From: a virus
Lineage: Duplodnaviria > Heunggongvirae > Uroviricota > Caudoviricetes
Virus record (IMG/VR): IMGVR_UViG_643348549_000020
Length of the DNA: 64,000 nt
Reading direction: 5' to 3' (one strand)
Shown: piece by piece, positions 2,364 to 51,834 of the stretch
Numbering within the stretch: the first letter of the stretch is position 1
How the letters are laid out: every line of letters starts with the position of its first letter
Program-made: the position numbers and the translations under genes
The notes under the pieces: generated by a model
Told to the model about the DNA's origin: nothing
The model's input: the letters and a program-made list of their open reading frames with translations, nothing else
Database searches by the model: none

Positions 2364-2519
2364 TTACTCCTCAGGTTCGTAAGCTGTGAAGACAGCGACC
2401 TCCGTCTGGCCGGTTCGGATTCGTACCTCGCAGAGGTCTTTCCTCGTTACCAGTGCCGTCACTATGACGGTTAAACAGATGACGATCAGGGCGATTAGCA
2501 TCGCCTTTTGCTGCTTCAT
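2364..2519 (-). CDS. hok: Hok/Gef-family small membrane toxin
   Basis: 51-aa product MKQQKAMLIALIVICLTVIVTALVTRKDLCEVRIRTGQTEVAVFTAYEPEE, essentially the HokD/RelF sequence as I recall it; single TM helix. Confidence 0.85.
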   Translation of the reverse strand: MKQQKAMLIALIVICLTVIVTALVTRKDLCEVRIRTGQTEVAVFTAYEPEE

Positions 2520-2576
2520 AGCCTGCTTCTCCTTGCCTTTCGGCACGTAAGAGGCTAACCTACGTGTGTAGAGCAT
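2364..2576 (-). CDS. mok: Mok-like N-terminally extended reading frame (translational coupler of hok)
   Basis: In-frame upstream ATG gives a 70-aa ORF with a 19-aa leader before the hok Met, as in mok/hok loci. Confidence 0.5.
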   Translation of the reverse strand: MLYTRRLASYVPKGKEKQAMKQQKAMLIALIVICLTVIVTALVTRKDLCEVRIRTGQTEVAVFTAYEPEE

Positions 2577-2984
2577 AGATATGGCCTCAGATTAATGTTA
2601 AGCGTCTTGCCGGACGCGTAATGTTAACTGGGGCTTTTCTCTATCTGCCGTTGGTGTTCATGCCCGAGGCAGATAGCCTCAAGCACCCGCAGCAATTCTA
2701 CTTAACTCTCGCTTTACCGCAAACCGTTTTTACCCGATATGGGAATTCCCATATCGTAATGAATTCAGTTCCCTAGTCGATCCATCAAAAACACAACCAG
2801 GCAGTAAACGCCCACAACAGCAATAACAGCCAGCGCACCTTCCATTGCCAGTGAAATATCATCCGACATATTCCCTCCTTTGGTGTGAATCCCGGCGAAC
2901 GTTTTTACCCCCACCGACAAATAACATATACTAAAAAATCAATAGCTATAGCAACGCCTGTAATTGCAAAGGCTTCAGGCCAGA

Positions 2985-9417: not shown

Positions 9418-9475
9418 TTTCTGGTGACGTTTGGCGGTATCAGTTTTACTCCGTGACTGCTCTGCCGCCCTTTTT
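9418..9475 (+). ncRNA. dicF: DicF antisense sRNA (targets ftsZ and other mRNAs)
   Basis: TTTCTGGTGACGTTTGGCGGTATCAGTTTTACTCCGTGACTGCTCTGCCGCCCTTTTT matches DicF as I remember it, ending in a GC stem plus T-run, between ydfC and dicB. Confidence 0.6.
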
Positions 9476-37328: not shown

Positions 37329-37740
37329 AACTCCCCCTGAAAATTATGTAAACACACACCAGTGATGAACAAAAAACAACCAGATTCGACACTAAAAATT
37401 TTTATTTTTCTATATATCAACAACTTACACTGGTGGTGATGGTGCCATAAAAATCAAAAAATGCGCCTTTTTCCGCGCCGCCCGCCCCGTGTTCAGGCCC
37501 ACCCCACCAGGAGGACCCGCAAAATGATAATGGTTATCATTTGTAATGTAGTCCGGTTTCTTCCACCATCGCACCGGACCAGCGACTATGAGGGGACAAC
37601 GCCGCGCTCCGTTAACGCGGTAAACCCCGGTGTGTATCGTTTTTGATTATCCCCGCACACTCGCGCAGAGGAGTCTCCCTGTCGGGCTGCGGTCTCTGTT
37701 AATGAGGGAATACAGCGACGATACGGCGCATCCGCAAAAC

Positions 37741-38208
37741 TTAGTTCAGGCACTGAGTGCGGATATAGTCCTGTGCCCCTTCCAGCTGCTTCTGCATTGT
37801 CATCAACCGTTCTCTGAGGATGAAATAATCCCGTTCAGCGGTGTCTGCCAGTCGGGGGCCGGTTGCATTATCCACGCCGGAGGTGCCGGTGGCTTCACGC
37901 ACGGTACCGGAGCAGGTGGCGTTGATCCGCAGGCGCTTACGACCAGCGGCAACATCAGCACGCAGAGTTTCATTTTCAGCTCTCGCATCAGCTAATTCCC
38001 TTGAGTATTTTGCATCGAGCGCAGCAACATCGCGCTGGCGCACCTGCATATCAGTAATGGTTGCGTTTGCCAGCTCCAGCTCTCTGGCTTTTTTATCGCG
38101 CTGCGCTTTGTAGGTGATGGCGTTATCACGGTAATGATTCAGCCCCAGACTAAGCGCACCACAGGCCACCAGCAGGGCAATGATGACCACACACAGTACG
38201 CGGTTCAT
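37741..38208 (-). CDS. Rz: i-spanin Rz
   Basis: 155 aa; N-terminal TM helix then coiled-coil; last gene of the lysis cassette. Confidence 0.75.
37803..37973 (-). CDS. Rz1: o-spanin Rz1 (lipoprotein embedded in Rz, +1 frame)
   Basis: Embedded ORF with lipobox [15 protein letters not shown] and Pro-rich mature part. Confidence 0.55.
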
Positions 38209-38506
38209 TTCACCACCAGCGTATCTGACCGATGAAATAACCGGAGACCATAATCACAAACACCAGCCAGATAAGAATGAACTTCCAGGTAGATAATTTT
38301 TCAGCCATCACTCAAATCTCCCGAATCAGTTTGCTAAAATCAAACACACTTTCTCCTTTGACTTTTCCGGAGTCAGGAAACACAAAACCCCACCTGCTGC
38401 TAACAAACGGGGTTTTTACTTTTATTCACTCAGGTTTTGCCAGTTCGCAGGATTTCGTGTTATCCGTCCGCGTTGGCCAACGTCATTTTTCAGCAAAATA
38501 TTCTGC

Positions 38507-39040
38507 TTATCTGTCGATACCCCAGCACGCCAGCGCGCTCTCCTGGTCACGACGGGATACCTGACCATAGCAATTATTTGAGCGGATACGGCAGTCTCTG
38601 CCTCCGTCCTTAATCCACCAGCGAATCGCTTCACACGCTCCCCTGCGGTCGCCTGCATTAATTCGTTTATAAAACGTCGACGGGAAACACTTACCGGGGC
38701 CAATGTTATACGGGCAGAATGACGCGATCCCCGCTTTCTGGGGTTCAGTCAGTGGCACTTTGATGTTTTTCTCCACCCATGCCAGCGCCTTATCACGCTC
38801 AATGGCGTTAACCCGGTCGCATTTCCCCTTCGACAGCTTCATGCCAGGAATAACAGGCTTACCATCCACCCGGGTGGCTCCACGGCAGATGGTCCAGATA
38901 CCCGCACCATCACGGTATGCCGTGGTGTGGTTACCTTCTTTTTCGTCAAGAAACTGGTCGAGAATTTCAGGCGCAGAAGCACCTGCGGCAATCAGCGCCA
39001 GAACGGCAGCCGACAGGCCGTATTTGATTTTTGTGTTCAT
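38507..39040 (-). CDS. SAR endolysin (phage 21 R-type lysozyme)
   Basis: 177 aa; N-terminal signal-anchor-release segment MNTKIKYGLSAAVLALIAAGAS; lysozyme-like body. Confidence 0.85.
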   Translation of the reverse strand: MNTKIKYGLSAAVLALIAAGASAPEILDQFLDEKEGNHTTAYRDGAGIWTICRGATRVDGKPVIPGMKLSKGKCDRVNAIERDKALAWVEKNIKVPLTEPQKAGIASFCPYNIGPGKCFPSTFYKRINAGDRRGACEAIRWWIKDGGRDCRIRSNNCYGQVSRRDQESALACWGIDR

Positions 39041-39076
39041 GGATATATTAAATATTCAGCCGCTGTCCCAGGCCCA

Positions 39077-39634
39077 CTAAATACGCACTTTCAGATAAGT
39101 CAGTCCGGGATGAAGCCAGTAAGCCGGCACTTTTTTAAAGGGTGGAGTATTAAAATTACGAAGAAGAGCCTCCCGCACAATTGCATCCTTATCAGCACCA
39201 CTGGCCAGCGCTTCAATCTCAGCGGCTACCTGCAGATACCCCATGCAACGACCAATGCGCTGCATCAGCCCCTGTTTTTTATTGTTCTTCAGGTAATCAA
39301 TGGCAAATTCAATGAGCGTCTCACTGTGCTGGTGCGATGGCAGTGTTACTTTTCCATTTTCTGATATGGTGATTTTCCCGTCATCACCGGATACAACAAA
39401 GGATGGCCGGTTACACTCCCATTCCAGCTCACTGCAATTATCATTATGAATACTGAAACACTCTGCGAGATTTCTGCTCATCACTTTCCGACAATAATCG
39501 TCAAACGCAGCAAACTGCTCATCGCGGCGTTTTTTTTCATCTTCAGAAGGCATCAGCGCCGACAGTTTTTTATTCAGTTCAGCAATTTCATTTTCCAGAC
39601 GACTGAAGCGCTGATTCATTTCTTCATGGTTCAT
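39077..39634 (-). CDS. hypothetical protein inserted between holin and endolysin
   Basis: 185-aa ORF from ATG with Shine-Dalgarno; N-terminal predicted coiled coil; no recognised family. Confidence 0.5.
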   Translation of the reverse strand: MNHEEMNQRFSRLENEIAELNKKLSALMPSEDEKKRRDEQFAAFDDYCRKVMSRNLAECFSIHNDNCSELEWECNRPSFVVSGDDGKITISENGKVTLPSHQHSETLIEFAIDYLKNNKKQGLMQRIGRCMGYLQVAAEIEALASGADKDAIVREALLRNFNTPPFKKVPAYWLHPGLTYLKVRI

Positions 39635-39637
39635 CAC

Positions 39638-39853
39638 CTACTCTCCCCGTGCCGCCTTACGCCTGTCCTCTCTGATTTTGAAATACAGGTTCGTCAGGTA
39701 CGTCAGCAGACCAAACAGCAGACTCCCCAGCACGCCTATTGCCGCCCACTGAGACGGGGAAACCCTGTCCAGCAACTGCAGGAACCAGTAGCCCGTTCCC
39801 ACCGCTGACGTGGTGTATGACACACCTGTTGTGATTTTTTCCATCTGGTTCAT
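39638..39853 (-). CDS. pinholin (phage 21 S-type)
   Basis: C-terminal region ...[37 protein letters not shown] closely matches S21 pinholin; two candidate starts (MNQ/MEKI). Confidence 0.8.
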
Positions 39854-39930
39854 ACCCCGCCTCCCGCAATCCGGAAGCTCACAACAATAAAAAAGACCAC
39901 CGGCACACACCGATGGTCCCTGACGCATGC

Positions 39931-40176
39931 TTACATCATCATGTCGCTGTCCGGTGTGGGGTCACCGCTGTCTGAAGCACTCCCCTCACCCGCGATGCCT
40001 TCCGGCTCCGGAGCTGCCGGTGCGCCCAGCAGTTCATCCAGAATGGCATCCACTTCTGCATCAAGACGCGCTTCCAGGTTATGGCGAAGTTTCTGTTTCA
40101 GTGCGCTCCGGACTTCTTCAGAGCGCAGGACTTCCTTCACTGCTTCAGCAGTGACCAGGGATGTAATTTCTGACAT
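39931..40176 (-). CDS. DUF826-like small acidic phage protein
   Basis: 81-aa ORF from internal ATG ([16 protein letters not shown]...); acidic C-terminus. Confidence 0.45.
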
Positions 40177-40216
40177 GGGATTTTCTCGTCGAAAGGTGTG
40201 ATTAAGAAAGTTGCCG

Positions 40217-40396
40217 CTAAATGAGCGGCTCTTCGGGTTTGCTTCCGGCTGACTGACTGGCGCTGATTTTCTCAGCGGCCCTTTTGTCAATCTGTCTGCG
40301 CCAGAAGTCACGCATGGCCCTGTACCCACCCGAAAGGAGATACAGCACACAGACCACCGTACAGAAGTACAGCATTAACTGGTTCAGAAATGTCAT
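40217..40396 (-). CDS. small membrane protein
   Basis: 59-aa ORF MTFLNQLMLYFCTVVCVLYLLSGGYRAMRDFWRRQIDKRAAEKISASQSAGSKPEEPLI found by manual translation; one TM helix. Confidence 0.35.
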   Translation of the reverse strand: MTFLNQLMLYFCTVVCVLYLLSGGYRAMRDFWRRQIDKRAAEKISASQSAGSKPEEPLI

Positions 40397-40530
40397 AATT
40401 TCTTTCCGTTATTGTTGACAATAAGAACTGTTTTCATTAAAAACCAGAGTACGAAAGTATCGTTCCTTTATTTTTTCTCCATAGGTATCACCACCGCCAG
40501 CGTCCATTCCTGTCGCTGGCGGTTTTTTTA

Positions 40531-42477
40531 TCATGCCGCAGTGTCTGTGCTGTTCACTTCCACCGCAATGCTGTCTATCAGTACCGGGTAAGTCGCACCT
40601 CTGGTAATGTCTGTCACATGCAGTTTATCCGCCGCAAAGGCACTGACCGGTGACTGCGTCAGCGTGAACGGTGTGCCATCCTGACCATCAATAACCGGCG
40701 TCACCTGCAGGCTGTTATTCCCGGCAAAGCGGAAAGCCAGCGTATGCCATTCGTTATCAAATGCGCCAAAGGTTCCCAGTTTCAGGTTGTTTGTCGCCAC
40801 TTTCGCATTGTGGTACATCACATTCAGGTCTTTTGCATCTGTCTGGATGTAGAACGCTGCCAGCAGGTTATTCCCCCCGTCTCCGGTCAGGGCAACGCCC
40901 TGTGGCAGTGAAGATACCGGCCAGTAAAACGCCATAACATACTGGTTCGCAGCCAGCGCTCCCGAAACCTTAAAGCGGCAGCGAATCTGCCCCCCTTTCT
41001 GTAACAGAGCCGCACCGTTGCCCGCGGCGTACTCCAGCACCCAGCTGCTTTTACCGGCTTCCTTGGTCAGCTTCACTGCCTTACCTCCGGTTCCCTCCGC
41101 ATCGCTGACCACTTCTGCCCTGCCGCCACTGGCTGACCATCCCTGTACTTTCAGGCTTCCCTCTGACTCGCTGGCAAGGTAAGAGAGCAGTGTTGTGACG
41201 CCTGTGGCTTCTGCACCGGAAGGCGATGACGGGCGCACCTCTGATACTGTCGATGATGCCCCCGCGTTTAGCGCCACTCTTCCCGCATGGCGCAAAATCG
41301 CCGTTGCCAGACGGTCGGAAATAATCCCGCGGCGAGCCCATGAACTGAAATGGCTCGCCCTGTCCTGTGACGTCCAGGTGGCTGAGCTGTCACGCCATTT
41401 CGAACCGTAATATCCGATACCCGGAATGTCCGGGTCTTCTTCCGGTTTGTTCGTCGGCACATTCACCCCGTTCTCATCGGTCATGAACGGTACGAAATGG
41501 ATATTCTTTTCCGTTTTGTTTTTGTAGCTGCCGTACACCGTCTGGTAGGTGGCTTCGTTCTTCTGCTTCCAGAAATACGTCGTGTCCCCGCATATCCAGG
41601 GAACACCGTCAGCAGAGCCACCGACGCACTGACCTGCCATATCCGCCAGGTCTGCACGGAATTTATCAACCAGCGCACCAAACTGTGCTGCGTGATTTGC
41701 CGGCGTACCGCCAAAATCAAATTCCCCCTGCATCCACACCACGGCAAACAGCACATTTTTCGGGTTCTTCTTCAGTGCTGCTTTTGTTCGACCGATAAGG
41801 TCCTTATACAGCGGCTTGTCCACACCCCAGCGGGTTGAATTCTCCGAAGCACCACTCGCGTCACTGTATGTGCCATCAGCTCCGGTGGTGAACGCTGAAC
41901 CACCACGACAGCACGGAACCAGCAGAATGCCCGCATTCGCCGGTATAAACGGCAGCAATTTTTTGGCGATATGCAGCCCCTGCCCCACGGTTCCGTACTG
42001 CCCCTTTGACAGGTCCGCTTTCGGATGGTTAAGGCGGCTCATGTCCTGCACATCATGCAGACAATGGTCCGCCGGAATGATGTCGTTATATTTACAGGCG
42101 ACACCGCCCGGTGTCACCGTACTGCGGCGCGCCAGCTGCTTAATACGCGGGTCCGGACGGTCATATGTCTCCGGCAGCGGAAGGCCTTCACCATATGCCA
42201 TGCTGTTTGACTGCCCCGCCAGAACCACAATAAAGTAATACTCCGGGTCTCTGGTGGCGCTGATTACTGCACCTTCTCCACCTGTCAGCTTCACCACAAC
42301 AGGTGTGCTCACATCACCTTCTGCGACAATCGCCTGAATAAGTGCTGCGCCATCATCCGTATACGAAGAAAACGGCCCACCGTATGGTTGCCATCCTTCA
42401 CGAATTTTTTGCGCAAGTGCATCAGCAAGGTCTGACGGCGACGCCGCCCTGACAACATCATAATGTTTAAATGTCAT
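40531..42477 (-). CDS. prophage sialate O-acetylesterase (NanS-p-like, SASA domain)
   Basis: 648-aa ORF in the position occupied by nanS-p downstream of stx in Stx phages; GDS(L)-like esterase motifs. Confidence 0.7.
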   Translation of the reverse strand: MTFKHYDVVRAASPSDLADALAQKIREGWQPYGGPFSSYTDDGAALIQAIVAEGDVSTPVVVKLTGGEGAVISATRDPEYYFIVVLAGQSNSMAYGEGLPLPETYDRPDPRIKQLARRSTVTPGGVACKYNDIIPADHCLHDVQDMSRLNHPKADLSKGQYGTVGQGLHIAKKLLPFIPANAGILLVPCCRGGSAFTTGADGTYSDASGASENSTRWGVDKPLYKDLIGRTKAALKKNPKNVLFAVVWMQGEFDFGGTPANHAAQFGALVDKFRADLADMAGQCVGGSADGVPWICGDTTYFWKQKNEATYQTVYGSYKNKTEKNIHFVPFMTDENGVNVPTNKPEEDPDIPGIGYYGSKWRDSSATWTSQDRASHFSSWARRGIISDRLATAILRHAGRVALNAGASSTVSEVRPSSPSGAEATGVTTLLSYLASESEGSLKVQGWSASGGRAEVVSDAEGTGGKAVKLTKEAGKSSWVLEYAAGNGAALLQKGGQIRCRFKVSGALAANQYVMAFYWPVSSLPQGVALTGDGGNNLLAAFYIQTDAKDLNVMYHNAKVATNNLKLGTFGAFDNEWHTLAFRFAGNNSLQVTPVIDGQDGTPFTLTQSPVSAFAADKLHVTDITRGATYPVLIDSIAVEVNSTDTAA

Positions 42478-42988
42478 TATTCCTCCCGGCCGGGATAGTG
42501 TATTAAATCAGATATGGAGTGGGCTGTAGTCCGGAAGCCTGAATGACACACGGGGACTACAGCCCAAGAAATGAAAAAAGGCCACGCAGTTGCGCAGCCT
42601 GATAAACCCTGGTTAAAATCCACACGATAACAACACAACAATATCAGTATCTCATGCTATTGCCCGAACCCATTCGGGCATTTTTTACCCATAAAAAAGC
42701 CCCTCCGGAGAGGGGCATGTTTGCATGCACATTCTTTTTCTTGCATGGTGCCGGGTGCCTCCCGGTGAATTCAGTATCAGCACCTGAATCCGCGATTATC
42801 ACATATACCTGGTTGCTGATTGCCCCTCCGCACAGGGGGATTCACCATGCGAAATTTTTTTAACAAACGCTCAGCATGTCAGGCAACATTCAACTGCCTG
42901 AATTGTGAGGCATTTAACATTTCACTGTCCGGTGTCTTTCCTGTAATAAAAAGCCCGCAAAAGAGAGTCAGGGCAGATAAGTGTGGTG

Positions 42989-43065
42989 TGGCGCGTTGTA
43001 CTGGATTCGGACCAGTGACCGATTGCTTAGAAGGCAATTGCTCTGTCCGGCTGAGCTAACAACGC
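42989..43065 (-). tRNA. tRNA-Arg (anticodon UCU)
   Basis: 77 nt; 7-bp acceptor stem GCGTTGT/ACAACGC, anticodon loop CTTCTAA, 3' CCA. Confidence 0.8.
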
Positions 43066-43078
43066 TGAATACCGATAA

Positions 43079-43155
43079 TGGACCGCCATCGGGGACCCGA
43101 ACCCCGCGCAACCAGCTTCGAAGGCTGGCGCTCTGTCCTGATGAGCTAATGGCGG
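43079..43155 (-). tRNA. tRNA-Arg (anticodon UCG)
   Basis: 77 nt; acceptor stem CCGCCAT/ATGGCGG, anticodon loop CTTCGAA, T-arm CGGGG-TTCGGGT-CCCCG, 3' CCA. Confidence 0.75.
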
Positions 43156-43164
43156 TATGTGATA

Positions 43165-43240
43165 TGGTGGCCCTTGCTGGATTTGAACCAGCGACCTGGC
43201 GATTATGAGTCGCTCGCTCTCACCACTGAGCTAAAGGGCC
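43165..43240 (-). tRNA. tRNA with CAU anticodon (Ile2/ileZ-like, possibly Met)
   Basis: 76 nt; GGCCCTT acceptor stem, anticodon loop CTCATAA, TTCAAAT T-loop, 3' CCA; resembles phage ileZ. Confidence 0.8.
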
Positions 43241-50620: not shown

Positions 50621-50947
50621 ATGACTAAAAATACTCGTTTTTCCCCCGAAGTCCGTCAGCGGGCGATTCGTATGGTTCTGGAAAGTCAGGATGAATATGA
50701 CTCACAGTGGGCGGCAATTTGTTCCATTGCCCCAAAGATTGGCTGTACGCCGGAGACTCTGCGTGTCTGGGTTCGCCAGCATGAGCGGGATACCGGGGGC
50801 GGTGATGGTGGGCTCACCAGCGCTGAACGTCAGCGTCTGAAAGAGCTGGAACGTGAAAATCGTGAACTGCGCCGCAGTAACGATATCCTTCGCCAGGCTT
50901 CCGCTTATTTTGCGAAGGCGGAGTTCGACCGCCTCTGGAAAAAATGA
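50621..50947 (+). CDS. IS629 transposase OrfA
   Basis: 108 aa, HTH plus leucine-zipper-like region, matches IS629/IS3-family OrfA. Confidence 0.9.
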
Positions 50948-51834
50948 TGCCACTGCTGGATAAGCTGCGTGAGCAGTACGGGGTCGGACCGGTATGCAGC
51001 GAACTGCATATTGCCCCGTCAACGTATTACCATTGTCAGCAACAGCGACATCATCCGGATAAACGCAGTGCCCGTGCGCAGCACGACGACTGGCTGAAGA
51101 GAGAGATACAGCGCGTATACGATGAAAATCATCAGGTGTACGGTGTGCGTAAAGTCTGGCGTCAGTTGTTACGGGAAGGAATCAGGGTGGCCAGATGTAC
51201 AGTGGCACGTCTCATGGCGGTTATGGGACTTGCCGGTGTTCTCCGGGGTAAAAAGGTCCGTACGACCATCAGCCGGAAAGCCGTTGCCGCAGGCGACCGC
51301 GTAAACCGTCAGTTCGTGGCAGAACGACCTGACCAGCTGTGGGTGGCTGATTTTACTTACGTCAGCACATGGCAGGGCTTCGTCTATGTGGCGTTTATCA
51401 TTGATGTGTTTGCCGGATACATCGTGGGGTGGCGGGTCTCATCGTCTATGGAAACGACATTCGTGCTGGATGCGCTGGAGCAGGCGTTGTGGGCCCGTCG
51501 TCCGTCTGGCACCATCCATCACAGCGATAAAGGCTCTCAGTATGTGTCACTGGCCTATACGGAGCGACTAAAAGAAGCCGGATTACTGGCATCAACAGGG
51601 AGTACAGGCGACTCGTATGACAACGCGATGGCTGAGAGCATCAATGGTCTTTACAAAGCGGAGGTAATACACCGTAAGAGCTGGAAAAACCGTGCAGAAG
51701 TGGAACTGGCCACACTAACGTGGGTGGACTGGTATAACAATCGACGATTGCTGGGAAGGCTGGGCCATACTCCTCCGGCAGAAGCAGAAAAAGCTTATTA
51801 TGCTTCCATCGGAAACGATGATCTGGCAGCCTGA
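50944..51834 (+). CDS. IS629 transposase OrfB (DDE catalytic domain)
   Basis: 296 aa, overlaps orfA as in IS3-family frameshift arrangement. Confidence 0.9.

What the first reader, a model, noticed from the sequence alone, without database searches (positions are those of the whole stretch)
39077..39634. Unknown 185-aa ORF inserted inside the lysis cassette between pinholin and SAR endolysin
Phage 21-type lysis cassettes normally run S-R-Rz/Rz1 without interruption. Here a 185-aa ORF with its own Shine-Dalgarno and a predicted N-terminal coiled coil sits between the pinholin stop (39638) and the endolysin start (39040). It would be made at the onset of lysis and could modulate lysis timing or act as a moron; I do not recognise the family.
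Basis: seen in the sequence. Interest (0 to 1): 0.5.

Follow-up and report, generated by a model that had tools for sequence, protein, structure and literature searches.

The report
Accessory gene between pinholin and endolysin
The 185-codon gene wedged between the hole-forming and wall-degrading lysis genes of this E. coli prophage is real and under selection, but it is a common, already catalogued protein of unknown function that fills a variable slot occupied in most related prophages, so it is ordinary rather than exceptional.

Summary
The ORF is real: window 39077-39634 (-), ATG start, 185 aa. It lies 3 nt after the stop of a P21-type pinholin and 36 nt before a SAR-type lysozyme. It is under purifying selection (dN/dS 0.2-0.35) and has a lower GC content (45%) than its neighbours (54-56%).

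It is not an oddity. The identical protein is annotated as hypothetical in many O157 genomes and belongs to PHROG 1085 (unknown function). It corresponds to the C-terminal two thirds of long 'YdfR family' proteins, without their DUF1327 domain.

The S-R gap is a mosaic slot. It is filled in 59 of 69 IMG/VR prophages with a near-identical pinholin, and by ydfR in K-12 Qin. Functional phages with ~96%-identical S and R lack any insert, so the gene is not a core lysis component.

The product is predicted to be soluble: a leucine-zipper-like helical hairpin, a linker, and a basic C-terminal domain with no detectable sequence or fold relatives. In relatives this domain is often followed by a convergent 104-aa partner gene (PHROG 1853), which is absent here.

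Function remains unknown. My best guess is a late, cytoplasmic accessory factor. Interest is modest.

The parts
39077..39634 (-). ORF185: 185-aa soluble protein (21.3 kDa, pI 6.2), stop codon included; member of PHROG 1085
   Evidence: dN/dS 0.21-0.35; identical to WP_001015158.1 'hypothetical protein'
39455..39628 (-). N-terminal helical hairpin (aa 3-60). Helix 1 is a leucine-zipper-like coiled coil. This module is shared with DUF1327-containing slot genes
   Evidence: AlphaFold model, pLDDT 76-91; heptad analysis; module found in other slot genes
39404..39454 (-). Acidic, low-confidence linker (aa 61-77). In 213- and 268-aa relatives a ~28-aa insertion sits here
   Evidence: pLDDT <50 for residues 56-69; alignment
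39080..39403 (-). C-terminal domain 'CTD-A' (aa 78-185, pI 9.1): three-strand beta meander plus four helices. Conserved motif GRxMGxLQxAAEIE...FDNPPFKxxPxxWxxPGxxYLKxR
   Evidence: pLDDT mostly >90; conserved in Escherichia, Shigella and Salmonella relatives at 29-40% identity; no Pfam, PDB or fold match
39641..39648 (-). Shine-Dalgarno GGGGAGAG, embedded in the last codons of the pinholin gene, 6 nt before the ORF185 ATG
   Evidence: sequence; the same element precedes every slot gene, and precedes R in empty-slot cassettes
39638..39853 (-). P21-type pinholin S (71 aa, dual start M1/M4); left boundary of the variable slot
   Evidence: PF04971 E 9e-33, phrog_20 and phrog_9876 'holin'
39041..39076 (-). 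36-nt AT-rich spacer between ORF185 and R with no Shine-Dalgarno-like sequence; right boundary of the slot
   Evidence: sequence; conserved SD-less leader in all occupied-slot cassettes
38507..39040 (-). SAR-type lysozyme R (177 aa)
   Evidence: PF00959 E 3e-24, phrog_7 'endolysin'
37741..38208 (-). Rz i-spanin with embedded Rz1 (37803-37988)
   Evidence: PF03245 E 3e-50, phrog_13

Best explanation
ORF185 is a genuine, translated late gene. It is horizontally shuffled accessory cargo in a recombination-prone slot between the pinholin and SAR-endolysin genes of P21-type lysis cassettes.

Shown:
- It is a domain-architecture variant (coiled-coil hairpin + CTD-A) of the long 'YdfR family' / PHROG 1085 proteins, lacking their N-terminal DUF1327 domain.
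- It starts 3 nt after the pinholin stop and uses the SD embedded in the pinholin's 3' end.
- It has no promoter-like or terminator-like site of its own.
- It is under purifying selection.
- It has no predicted membrane segment.
- Near-identical S and R genes occur in functional phages without it.

Inferred:
- It is made from the Q-dependent late transcript together with S and R.
- It oligomerises through the leucine-zipper-like first helix.
- Its basic, novel C-terminal domain binds a cytoplasmic macromolecule.

Most likely pathway (weakest step, about 0.3): in full-length relatives CTD-A is fused to DUF1327, and the K-12 DUF1327 protein YdfR binds the catalytic half of RNase E and co-purifies with RNA. 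By this fusion logic, the protein may tune host RNA-degradosome or RNA turnover during the late phase. It might do so in trans with DUF1327-coiled-coil proteins from co-resident prophages through the shared coiled coil. On this view it affects burst or timing only indirectly and is not part of the lysis machinery.
For: Real and selected.

Family: phrog_1085 at E 2.9e-111, matching profile positions 117-296 of 296. The 287-296-aa DUF1327 proteins cover 98% of the query at 81-91% identity. ATCC 25922 carries an intact 297-aa form in the same slot.

Slot is usually occupied and mosaic: 59 of 69 loci. All 80 analysed IMG/VR CTD-A loci lie between S and R, and the 185-aa form is the commonest (22 solo plus 1 with a partner gene). 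K-12 Qin has essQ-ydfR-rrrQ.

Dispensable for lysis: phages P13374, phi191, Ss-VASD and phi-O153 have S and R at ~96-97% DNA identity lying contiguous. Ten of 69 IMG/VR loci have an empty slot.

Foreign composition: GC 45.0% versus 54-56% in neighbours.

No own promoter or terminator. Soluble, with heptads.

Structure: pLDDT 82.8 with a confident C-terminal domain.

The CTD-A gene is not tied to the S-R gap: Salmonella relatives sit upstream of the holin.

DUF1327-RNase E link: PMC13232886, read.
Against: - The RNase E link rests on a domain that this protein lacks. In that paper, YdfR overproduction barely changed the transcriptome.
- Constant adjacency to holin genes in two genera could instead reflect a lysis-related role.
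- The convergent partner gene seen in relatives hints at a conflict or regulatory pair rather than RNA metabolism.
- Translation and late expression are inferred, not measured.
Confidence: 0.5

Rival explanations
1. Lysis-timing modulator. ORF185 would be a cytoplasmic helical protein that binds the cytoplasmic C-terminal tail of the pinholin (or the SAR endolysin before release) and delays or sharpens triggering. This would resemble in principle the cytoplasmic antiholin cofactor RIII of phage T4.
For: - It always begins 3-4 nt after the pinholin stop and shares the pinholin's SD, so its stoichiometry is coupled to S.
- Relatives in Salmonella and in an unassigned metagenomic contig still lie next to holin or endolysin genes.
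- The N-terminal helical hairpin resembles the predicted shape of RIII (own knowledge; not tested).
- Inserting the gene moves R from an SD-coupled start to an SD-less leader.
Against: - The pinholin is at least 97% identical across loci whose slot genes differ completely: DUF1327 only, coiled coil + CTD-A, coiled coil + another C-terminus, or nothing. A dedicated partner of S should co-vary with it.
- There is no membrane segment.
- Functional phages lack the gene.
- The sister module DUF1327 binds RNase E, not a lysis protein.
Confidence: 0.15
2. Solo half of a two-gene conflict module. CTD-A would be a late-expressed effector (anti-defence, superinfection exclusion or inter-prophage competition). 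Its ancestral companion would be the convergently transcribed 104-aa PHROG 1853 protein, acting as regulator, immunity factor or target mimic. The window's allele has lost that partner.
For: - 41 of 42 IMG/VR loci with PHROG 1853 have a CTD-A gene adjacent and convergent.
- The pair recurs in relatives where CTD-A is only ~35% and the partner 29-40% identical.
- The slot behaves like a diversity hot spot: constant flanks, low GC, orphan genes, and several unrelated antisense ORFs.
- Related alleles co-reside, with up to 5 places per genome.
Against: - No match to any PADLOC defence model.
- The sense gene has no promoter of its own, so it would act only late in the lytic cycle.
- More than half of the CTD-A genes, including this one, lack the partner yet remain under purifying selection.
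- Co-occurrence may be simple linkage; the loci are not phylogenetically independent.
Confidence: 0.2
3. Functionless remnant. ORF185 would be an N-terminally truncated leftover of a 296-aa YdfR-family gene that persists only because it is wedged between essential lysis genes.
For: - It lacks the DUF1327 domain of the long forms.
- Some loci carry frameshifted or split copies: L046, L052 and L094, plus 10 truncated 113-140-aa forms among 80 loci.
Against: - dN/dS is 0.21-0.31 among intact 185-aa alleles.
- The 185-aa form has a conserved ATG and SD and is the commonest CTD-A architecture.
- A comparable coiled-coil + CTD-A architecture without DUF1327 exists independently in Salmonella (P0167, 165 aa).
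Confidence: 0.07
4. The ORF is not translated. The sequence would serve only as a spacer or RNA element between S and R.
For: No direct expression data were available to me.
Against: - Purifying selection at the codon level and whole-codon indels.
- A good SD at proper spacing.
- A confident AlphaFold domain.
- No Rfam family in the region.
Confidence: 0.03

Closest known systems
Long 'YdfR family' proteins / PHROG 1085 (287-296 aa; for example the ATCC 25922 slot gene and P0034)
   Same: - Same slot: starts 3-4 nt after the pinholin stop.
- Same coiled-coil hairpin and same C-terminal domain, at 81-91% identity over 98% of ORF185.
   Different: ORF185 lacks the ~110-aa N-terminal DUF1327 domain that names the family. 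Its first ~38 residues are a diverged replacement that begins with its own Met.
YdfR of E. coli K-12 cryptic prophage Qin (103 aa, DUF1327, PF07041)
   Same: It occupies the same position between a P21-type holin (essQ) and a lysozyme (rrrQ). It is uncharacterised apart from binding the RNase E N-terminal half and co-purifying with RNA (PMC13232886).
   Different: There is no shared sequence. K-12 YdfR is essentially the DUF1327 module alone, whereas ORF185 is the complementary coiled-coil + CTD-A part.
Accessory genes embedded in lambdoid lysis regions: ant/KilA-N between R and Rz in 933W-type Stx phages; bor after Rz
   Same: These are non-lysis cargo tolerated inside or next to the S-R-Rz block and carried by otherwise similar phages.
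   Different: They sit in a different slot and belong to different families. bor is a classic moron with its own promoter (own knowledge); ORF185 shows none.
T4 RIII, cytoplasmic antiholin cofactor (own knowledge; not tested here)
   Same: A small, soluble, helical cytoplasmic protein encoded by a phage, which acts on a holin's cytoplasmic domain. It is the only precedent for a cytoplasmic lysis-timing factor.
   Different: No sequence or fold relationship was found. RIII works with the RI/T lysis-inhibition system, not with pinholins. ORF185 also has an additional 108-aa domain.

Membership tests
PHROG 1085 (unknown function) | Significant match to the family profile HMM | tested here: met
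   E 2.9e-111, residues 1-185 on profile positions 117-296 of 296
YdfR family / DUF1327 (PF07041) | Presence of the DUF1327 domain | tested here: not met
   No PF07041 hit for ORF185. No DUF1327 coding anywhere in the 64-kb window by tblastn. Long relatives hit PF07041 at E 9e-41.
YdfR family / DUF1327 (PF07041) | Homology to the non-DUF1327 part of long family members, and the same genomic slot | tested here: met
   81-91% identity over 98% of the query to 287-296-aa DUF1327 proteins; same S-R slot
Holin / antiholin | At least one transmembrane segment, or membrane tethering | tested here: not met
   Highest 19-residue Kyte-Doolittle mean is 0.76; GRAVY is -0.60; no holin Pfam or PHROG hit
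Endolysin / spanin | Muralytic catalytic domain, or Rz/Rz1-type TMD or lipobox | tested here: not met
   No such Pfam or PHROG match. The cassette already has R, Rz and Rz1.
Essential lysis-cassette component | Present wherever the same S and R are present | tested here: not met
   Absent from 10 of 69 loci with a >=97% identical pinholin, and from phages P13374, phi191 and Ss-VASD with ~96% identical S and R
Moron (autonomous cargo unit in a late operon) | Base composition different from the flanks | tested here: met
   GC 45.0% (GC3 44%) versus S 55%, R 54%, Rz 55%
Moron (autonomous cargo unit in a late operon) | Own promoter and terminator allowing expression from the prophage | tested here: not met
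   The consensus scan found no sigma-70-like promoter on the coding strand in 37600-40600 and no terminator between S and R. A consensus scan is weak evidence.
Known anti-phage defence systems (PADLOC) | Match to a defence-protein model | tested here: not met
   No hit for ORF185, for longer relatives, or for the PHROG 1853 partner
CTD-A / PHROG 1853 convergent gene pair | A PHROG 1853 ORF convergent and adjacent to the CTD-A gene | tested here: not met
   No PHROG 1853-like coding in the window; only 36 nt separate ORF185 from R. The pair is present in phage 86, Stx2_12E129 and 41 of 42 IMG/VR loci.

The most novel reading that the evidence does not exclude
The pinholin-endolysin gap of enterobacterial lambdoid prophages may be an unrecognised diversity hot spot for phage-conflict genes. 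On this reading, CTD-A (a fold with no detectable relatives) and the convergent PHROG 1853 protein form a new two-gene effector/partner system. The modular N-termini (DUF1327, which binds RNase E, and a coiled coil) would deliver or assemble the effector. ORF185 would be the partner-less effector form, acting late in the lytic cycle against a host or rival-phage target.
Probability: 0.2. Interest if true: 0.65.

Novelty: new member of a known kind. Interest (0 to 1): 0.33.

Why it matters
As found, it matters little. It is one more copy of a widespread hypothetical prophage protein.

Its context is more useful. Stx and related lambdoid prophages drive toxin release through this very lysis operon. 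The gene sits in the same late transcript, translationally coupled to the pinholin, and in every occupied cassette it displaces the endolysin from its usual ribosome-binding site.

If slot genes alter lysis timing, RNA stability or inter-prophage competition, they would influence burst size and Shiga-toxin release in EHEC. The family also offers an uncharacterised domain, and a tightly linked partner gene, for which simple genetics in inducible lysogens should be feasible.

Tried and rejected
Searches that gave no functional lead:
- Pfam, NCBIfam and PADLOC scans of ORF185 gave only sub-threshold noise.
- A Pfam scan of 12 diverged CTD-A sequences gave no consistent weak hit.
- PDB sequence searches with the single protein and with a profile found nothing credible.
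- The AFDB library was not available.
- The genome-contig scan returned only three Escherichia/Shigella loci.
- The look-up of P0162 failed.
- Literature searches found nothing on this protein or on S-R inserts. Only the 2026 RNase E paper treats YdfR.

Ideas considered and rejected:
- Membrane antiholin: no TMD.
- Pseudogene: dN/dS well below 1.
- Known defence gene: no PADLOC hit.
- Non-coding RNA element: no Rfam hit.
- Autonomous moron with its own promoter: none found.
- The GTG at 39637 as the true start: not conserved in other alleles.

Full report
OBSERVATION

On the minus strand, the pinholin gene ends with TAG at 39640-39638. It is followed by GTG, then by the ATG at 39634-39632. The frame stays open for 185 codons to TAG at 39079-39077.

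- Upstream gene: a 71-aa P21-type class II holin (39638-39853; PF04971, E 9e-33) with the MNQMEK dual-start motif.
- Downstream gene: 36 nt further on is a 177-aa lysozyme (38507-39040; PF00959, E 3e-24). Its N-terminus is a G/A/S-rich hydrophobic stretch of the SAR type. Rz and Rz1 follow.
- Context: a lambdoid prophage of E. coli O157:H7 type. The order is Q, a DNA methyltransferase, tRNAs, NanS-p-like esterase, DUF1378, DUF826, S, ORF185, R, Rz, terminase.
- Shine-Dalgarno: GGGGAGAG (39648-39641) is real, but it lies inside the last codons of S.
- Start codon: other alleles have ATA or AAT in place of the GTG, so the ATG is the conserved start.

IS IT A GENE?

Yes.
- The identical 558 nt occur in many complete O157 and other STEC genomes, annotated as 'hypothetical protein' WP_001015158.1.
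- The exact protein is on at least 999 contigs.
- Of 5426 complete E. coli genomes, 232 carry at least 80% of the DNA, and 878 carry part of it.
- Homologues differ by whole-codon indels.
- dN/dS is 0.21-0.31 among intact 185-aa alleles, and 0.22-0.35 for the C-terminal 114 codons against phage 86 and Stx2_12E129 alleles.
- GC content is 45.0% (GC3 44%), against 54-56% for S, R, Rz, DUF826 and NanS-p. The segment is therefore compositionally foreign.
- A consensus scan found no promoter on the coding strand and no terminator between S and R. Terminator-like hairpins lie before S (39921-39892) and after R (38416-38384). No Rfam family maps here.

FAMILY

- Pfam, NCBIfam and PADLOC give nothing.
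- PHROGs places the protein in phrog_1085 (unknown function) at E 2.9e-111, but only on profile positions 117-296.
- A search of 5.8 billion proteins returned only E. coli and Shigella sequences. They are 185-aa forms; 213-aa forms with a ~28-aa insertion in the linker; and 287-296-aa 'YdfR family / DUF1327' proteins that contain the whole of ORF185 at 81-91% identity after an N-terminal DUF1327 domain.
- ATCC 25922 has an intact 297-aa form in the same place. PGAP annotates only its DUF1327 part, as a truncated pseudogene.
- DNA identity between that allele and the window starts at about codon 39. The window's N-terminus is therefore a diverged replacement of DUF1327 plus the first helix.
- An exhaustive HMMER search and a profile search found more distant relatives of the C-terminal domain alone (29-40% identity). 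They are in Salmonella enterica and in unassigned metagenomic contigs. Some carry a DUF1327-like N-terminus, some only a short coiled coil (P0167, 165 aa), and one has no N-terminal extension at all (P0141, 125 aa).

THE S-R GAP IS A MOSAIC SLOT, USUALLY OCCUPIED

In E. coli K-12 the cryptic prophage Qin reads essQ-ydfR-rrrQ.

I fetched 80 IMG/VR loci whose pinholin is at least 97% identical to the window's. Sixty-nine of them contain both S and R.
- In 10 of these loci S and R are 4 nt apart.
- In 59 (86%) a gene fills the gap.

Every occupant starts 3-4 nt after the S stop and uses the S-embedded SD. The occupants are combinatorial:
- DUF1327 alone (86-116 aa; the majority)
- DUF1327 + coiled coil (176 aa)
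- coiled coil + CTD-A (185 aa, the window's type)
- coiled coil + insertion + CTD-A (213 aa)
- DUF1327 + coiled coil + CTD-A (296 aa)
- DUF1327 + insertion + CTD-A (268 aa, as in Stx2 phage 86)
- a 328-aa form
- coiled coil + an unrelated C-terminus (161 aa, Stx2_499 type)

Several of these are followed by unrelated antisense ORFs of 86-105 aa.

A scan with the CTD-A profile found 114 viral contigs. All 80 analysed have the gene between S and R, and the 185-aa form is the commonest (22 without a partner gene, plus 1 with one). Ten copies are truncated.

In occupied cassettes, R is preceded by a conserved AT-rich leader without an SD. In empty ones, R uses the SD inside S.

Phages P13374, phi191, Ss-VASD and phi-O153 have S and R at ~96-97% DNA identity to the window's, with no insert. 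The gene is therefore not needed for lysis.

In Salmonella prophages the CTD-A gene lies upstream of the holin, after Q and a toxin-antitoxin pair. It is thus linked to the late/lysis region but not to the S-R gap as such.

A LINKED PARTNER GENE IN RELATIVES

- Phage 86 and Stx2_12E129 have a 104-aa ORF on the opposite strand immediately after the CTD-A gene. It is phrog_1853 (unknown function).
- Homologous ORFs (40% and 29% identity) follow the distant CTD-A genes of two metagenomic contigs in the same convergent arrangement.
- The E. coli contigs examined that carry phrog_1853 have it next to a CTD-A-type gene in the S-R slot, except one locus (L104) where no slot gene was called.
- In IMG/VR, 41 of 42 phrog_1853 loci have CTD-A adjacent and convergent.
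- The reverse does not hold. Forty-three of the 80 CTD-A genes analysed lack the partner.
- The window has no trace of the partner.
- The partner correlates strongly with the linker insertion (counts 34/2/3/41; Fisher p 1e-16). The loci are not independent, so this may be linkage.

STRUCTURE

With 36 sequences including the distant relatives, AlphaFold gives mean pLDDT 82.8.
- Helices 3-27 and 31-60 form a hairpin.
- Residues 56-69 are disordered.
- There is then a compact domain of strands 79-84, 87-92 and 95-97, and helices 101-117, 123-144, 151-161 and 178-184, mostly above pLDDT 90.
- Helix 1 has a textbook heptad core.
- The protein is hydrophilic with no membrane segment. The hairpin is acidic and the C-terminal domain is basic (pI 9.1).
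- The conserved positions are mostly structural. The motif is GRxMGxLQxAAEIE and, at the C-terminus, FDNPPFKxxPxxWxxPGxxYLKxR. No catalytic-looking constellation is apparent.

HOW IT MOST LIKELY WORKS

Shown: a selected, soluble protein encoded in the late operon, coupled to S, dispensable for lysis, and built from shuffled modules.

Inferred: late co-expression with S and R; oligomerisation through helix 1; and target binding by CTD-A.

For the pathway, the only experimental handle is the fusion partner. K-12 YdfR (DUF1327) was recovered in two-hybrid screens, binds the catalytic N-terminal half of RNase E in pull-downs, and co-purifies with RNA. Its overproduction changed the transcriptome little (PMC13232886).

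Full-length family members fuse DUF1327, the coiled coil and CTD-A. The two 'half' architectures (DUF1327 + coiled coil, and coiled coil + CTD-A) both keep the coiled coil. I therefore favour, at roughly 0.3, a role in the same RNA-degradosome or RNA pathway, possibly assembled in trans with DUF1327 proteins of co-resident prophages. Related alleles occur at up to five places per genome.

The rivals are:
- A cytoplasmic lysis-timing factor. It is supported by the constant adjacency and coupling to holins. It is weakened by the wild variation of slot genes beside an invariant pinholin.
- The partner-less half of a conflict module with phrog_1853. It is supported by the obligate linkage and hot-spot behaviour. 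It is weakened by the lack of any defence-family match, by the lack of an own promoter, and by selection on solo copies.
- A decaying remnant, or an untranslated spacer. Both are contradicted by the selection data.

COMPARISON AND NOVELTY

The closest known entities are the long YdfR-family proteins (the same slot, hairpin and C-terminal domain) and K-12 ydfR (the same slot, but the complementary module).

ORF185 fails the defining DUF1327 test. I therefore file it under PHROG 1085, not under DUF1327.

It is not a holin, antiholin, endolysin or spanin. It meets only the compositional half of the moron definition.

The exact protein is already in public databases as a hypothetical protein. I found no paper that discusses it or the S-R slot. 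Reviews of Stx phage lysis modules describe only S, R and Rz/Rz1.

What this analysis adds is the picture of the slot as a usually occupied, modular hot spot, and the CTD-A/phrog_1853 linkage.

VERDICT

It is a new member of a known, uncharacterised kind, of modest interest.

Noticed in passing
window 39041-39076 and the R start at 39040 (-); IMG/VR loci L018-L097: In every cassette with an occupied S-R slot, the endolysin start is preceded by a conserved AT-rich leader (..ATAAATATCC ATG or AATATTTAATATATCC ATG) with no Shine-Dalgarno. In empty-slot cassettes R uses the GGGGAGAG inside the pinholin's 3' end and has a different N-terminus (MSRK.. instead of MNTK/MNAK..). The slot gene therefore takes over R's ribosome-binding site.
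   Followed up: partly
window 38210-38311 (-) and 38384-38416 (-): Between R and Rz there is a 33-aa ORF with a hydrophobic core ([33 protein letters not shown]). It matches phrog_6632 (unknown function, E 1.6e-19) and is preceded by a strong terminator-like hairpin just after R.
   Followed up: no
L014 2050-2943 (E. coli ATCC 25922, NZ_CP037449.1): An intact 297-codon DUF1327 + coiled-coil + CTD-A ORF is annotated by PGAP only as a 336-nt 'YdfR family protein, incomplete, missing C-terminus' pseudogene, and the rest is left unannotated. In the spread listing of the E. coli genome search, most rows with about 79% coverage show no annotated feature under the match, which suggests the same pattern elsewhere; only ATCC 25922 was checked.
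   Followed up: partly
L003 4085-4399 (-), L002 4220-4534 (-), L098 495-812 (-), L101 436-759 (-), L188-L229: A 104-107-aa ORF (phrog_1853, unknown function) lies convergent and adjacent to CTD-A genes in 41 of 42 IMG/VR loci, and in distant relatives with a different endolysin type (GH108). It looks like a conserved two-gene unit. It correlates with a ~28-aa insertion (YSITVKSAGEEGNKRYFIASAPDKD) in the CTD-A protein.
   Followed up: partly
L047 and L005 (Stx2_499-type slot): The alternative C-terminus of the 161-aa slot protein ('CTD-B') overlaps, on the opposite strand, an unannotated 210-aa ORF with no database match. It is unclear which strand is coding there.
   Followed up: no
L028, L038, L033, L007 (slot regions): Other occupied slots carry mutually unrelated antisense ORFs of 86-105 aa after the DUF1327 gene. 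All are orphans. One has a weak PADLOC hit (PDC-S51, E 1.3e-5).
   Followed up: partly
window 42625-43240: Rfam finds the AgvB anti-GcvB sRNA (42625-42686, +), STnc100 (42687-42879, -) and three tRNAs (42992-43240, -), just upstream of the NanS-p-like esterase gene in the late operon.
   Followed up: no
window 2514-2688 (-), 9419-9470 (+), 50902-51018 (+): Rfam also finds a sok antitoxin RNA, a DicF RNA and an ALIL pseudoknot. These point to hok/sok and dicF-type prophage cargo and an insertion element elsewhere in the window.
   Followed up: no
L009, L011, L013 (Salmonella enterica prophages): The Salmonella CTD-A genes lie between antiterminator Q and the holin, next to toxin-antitoxin pairs (ParE + HTH, or HicA/HicB). 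In L009 and L100 the gene is followed by an antisense DUF1883 ORF.
   Followed up: no
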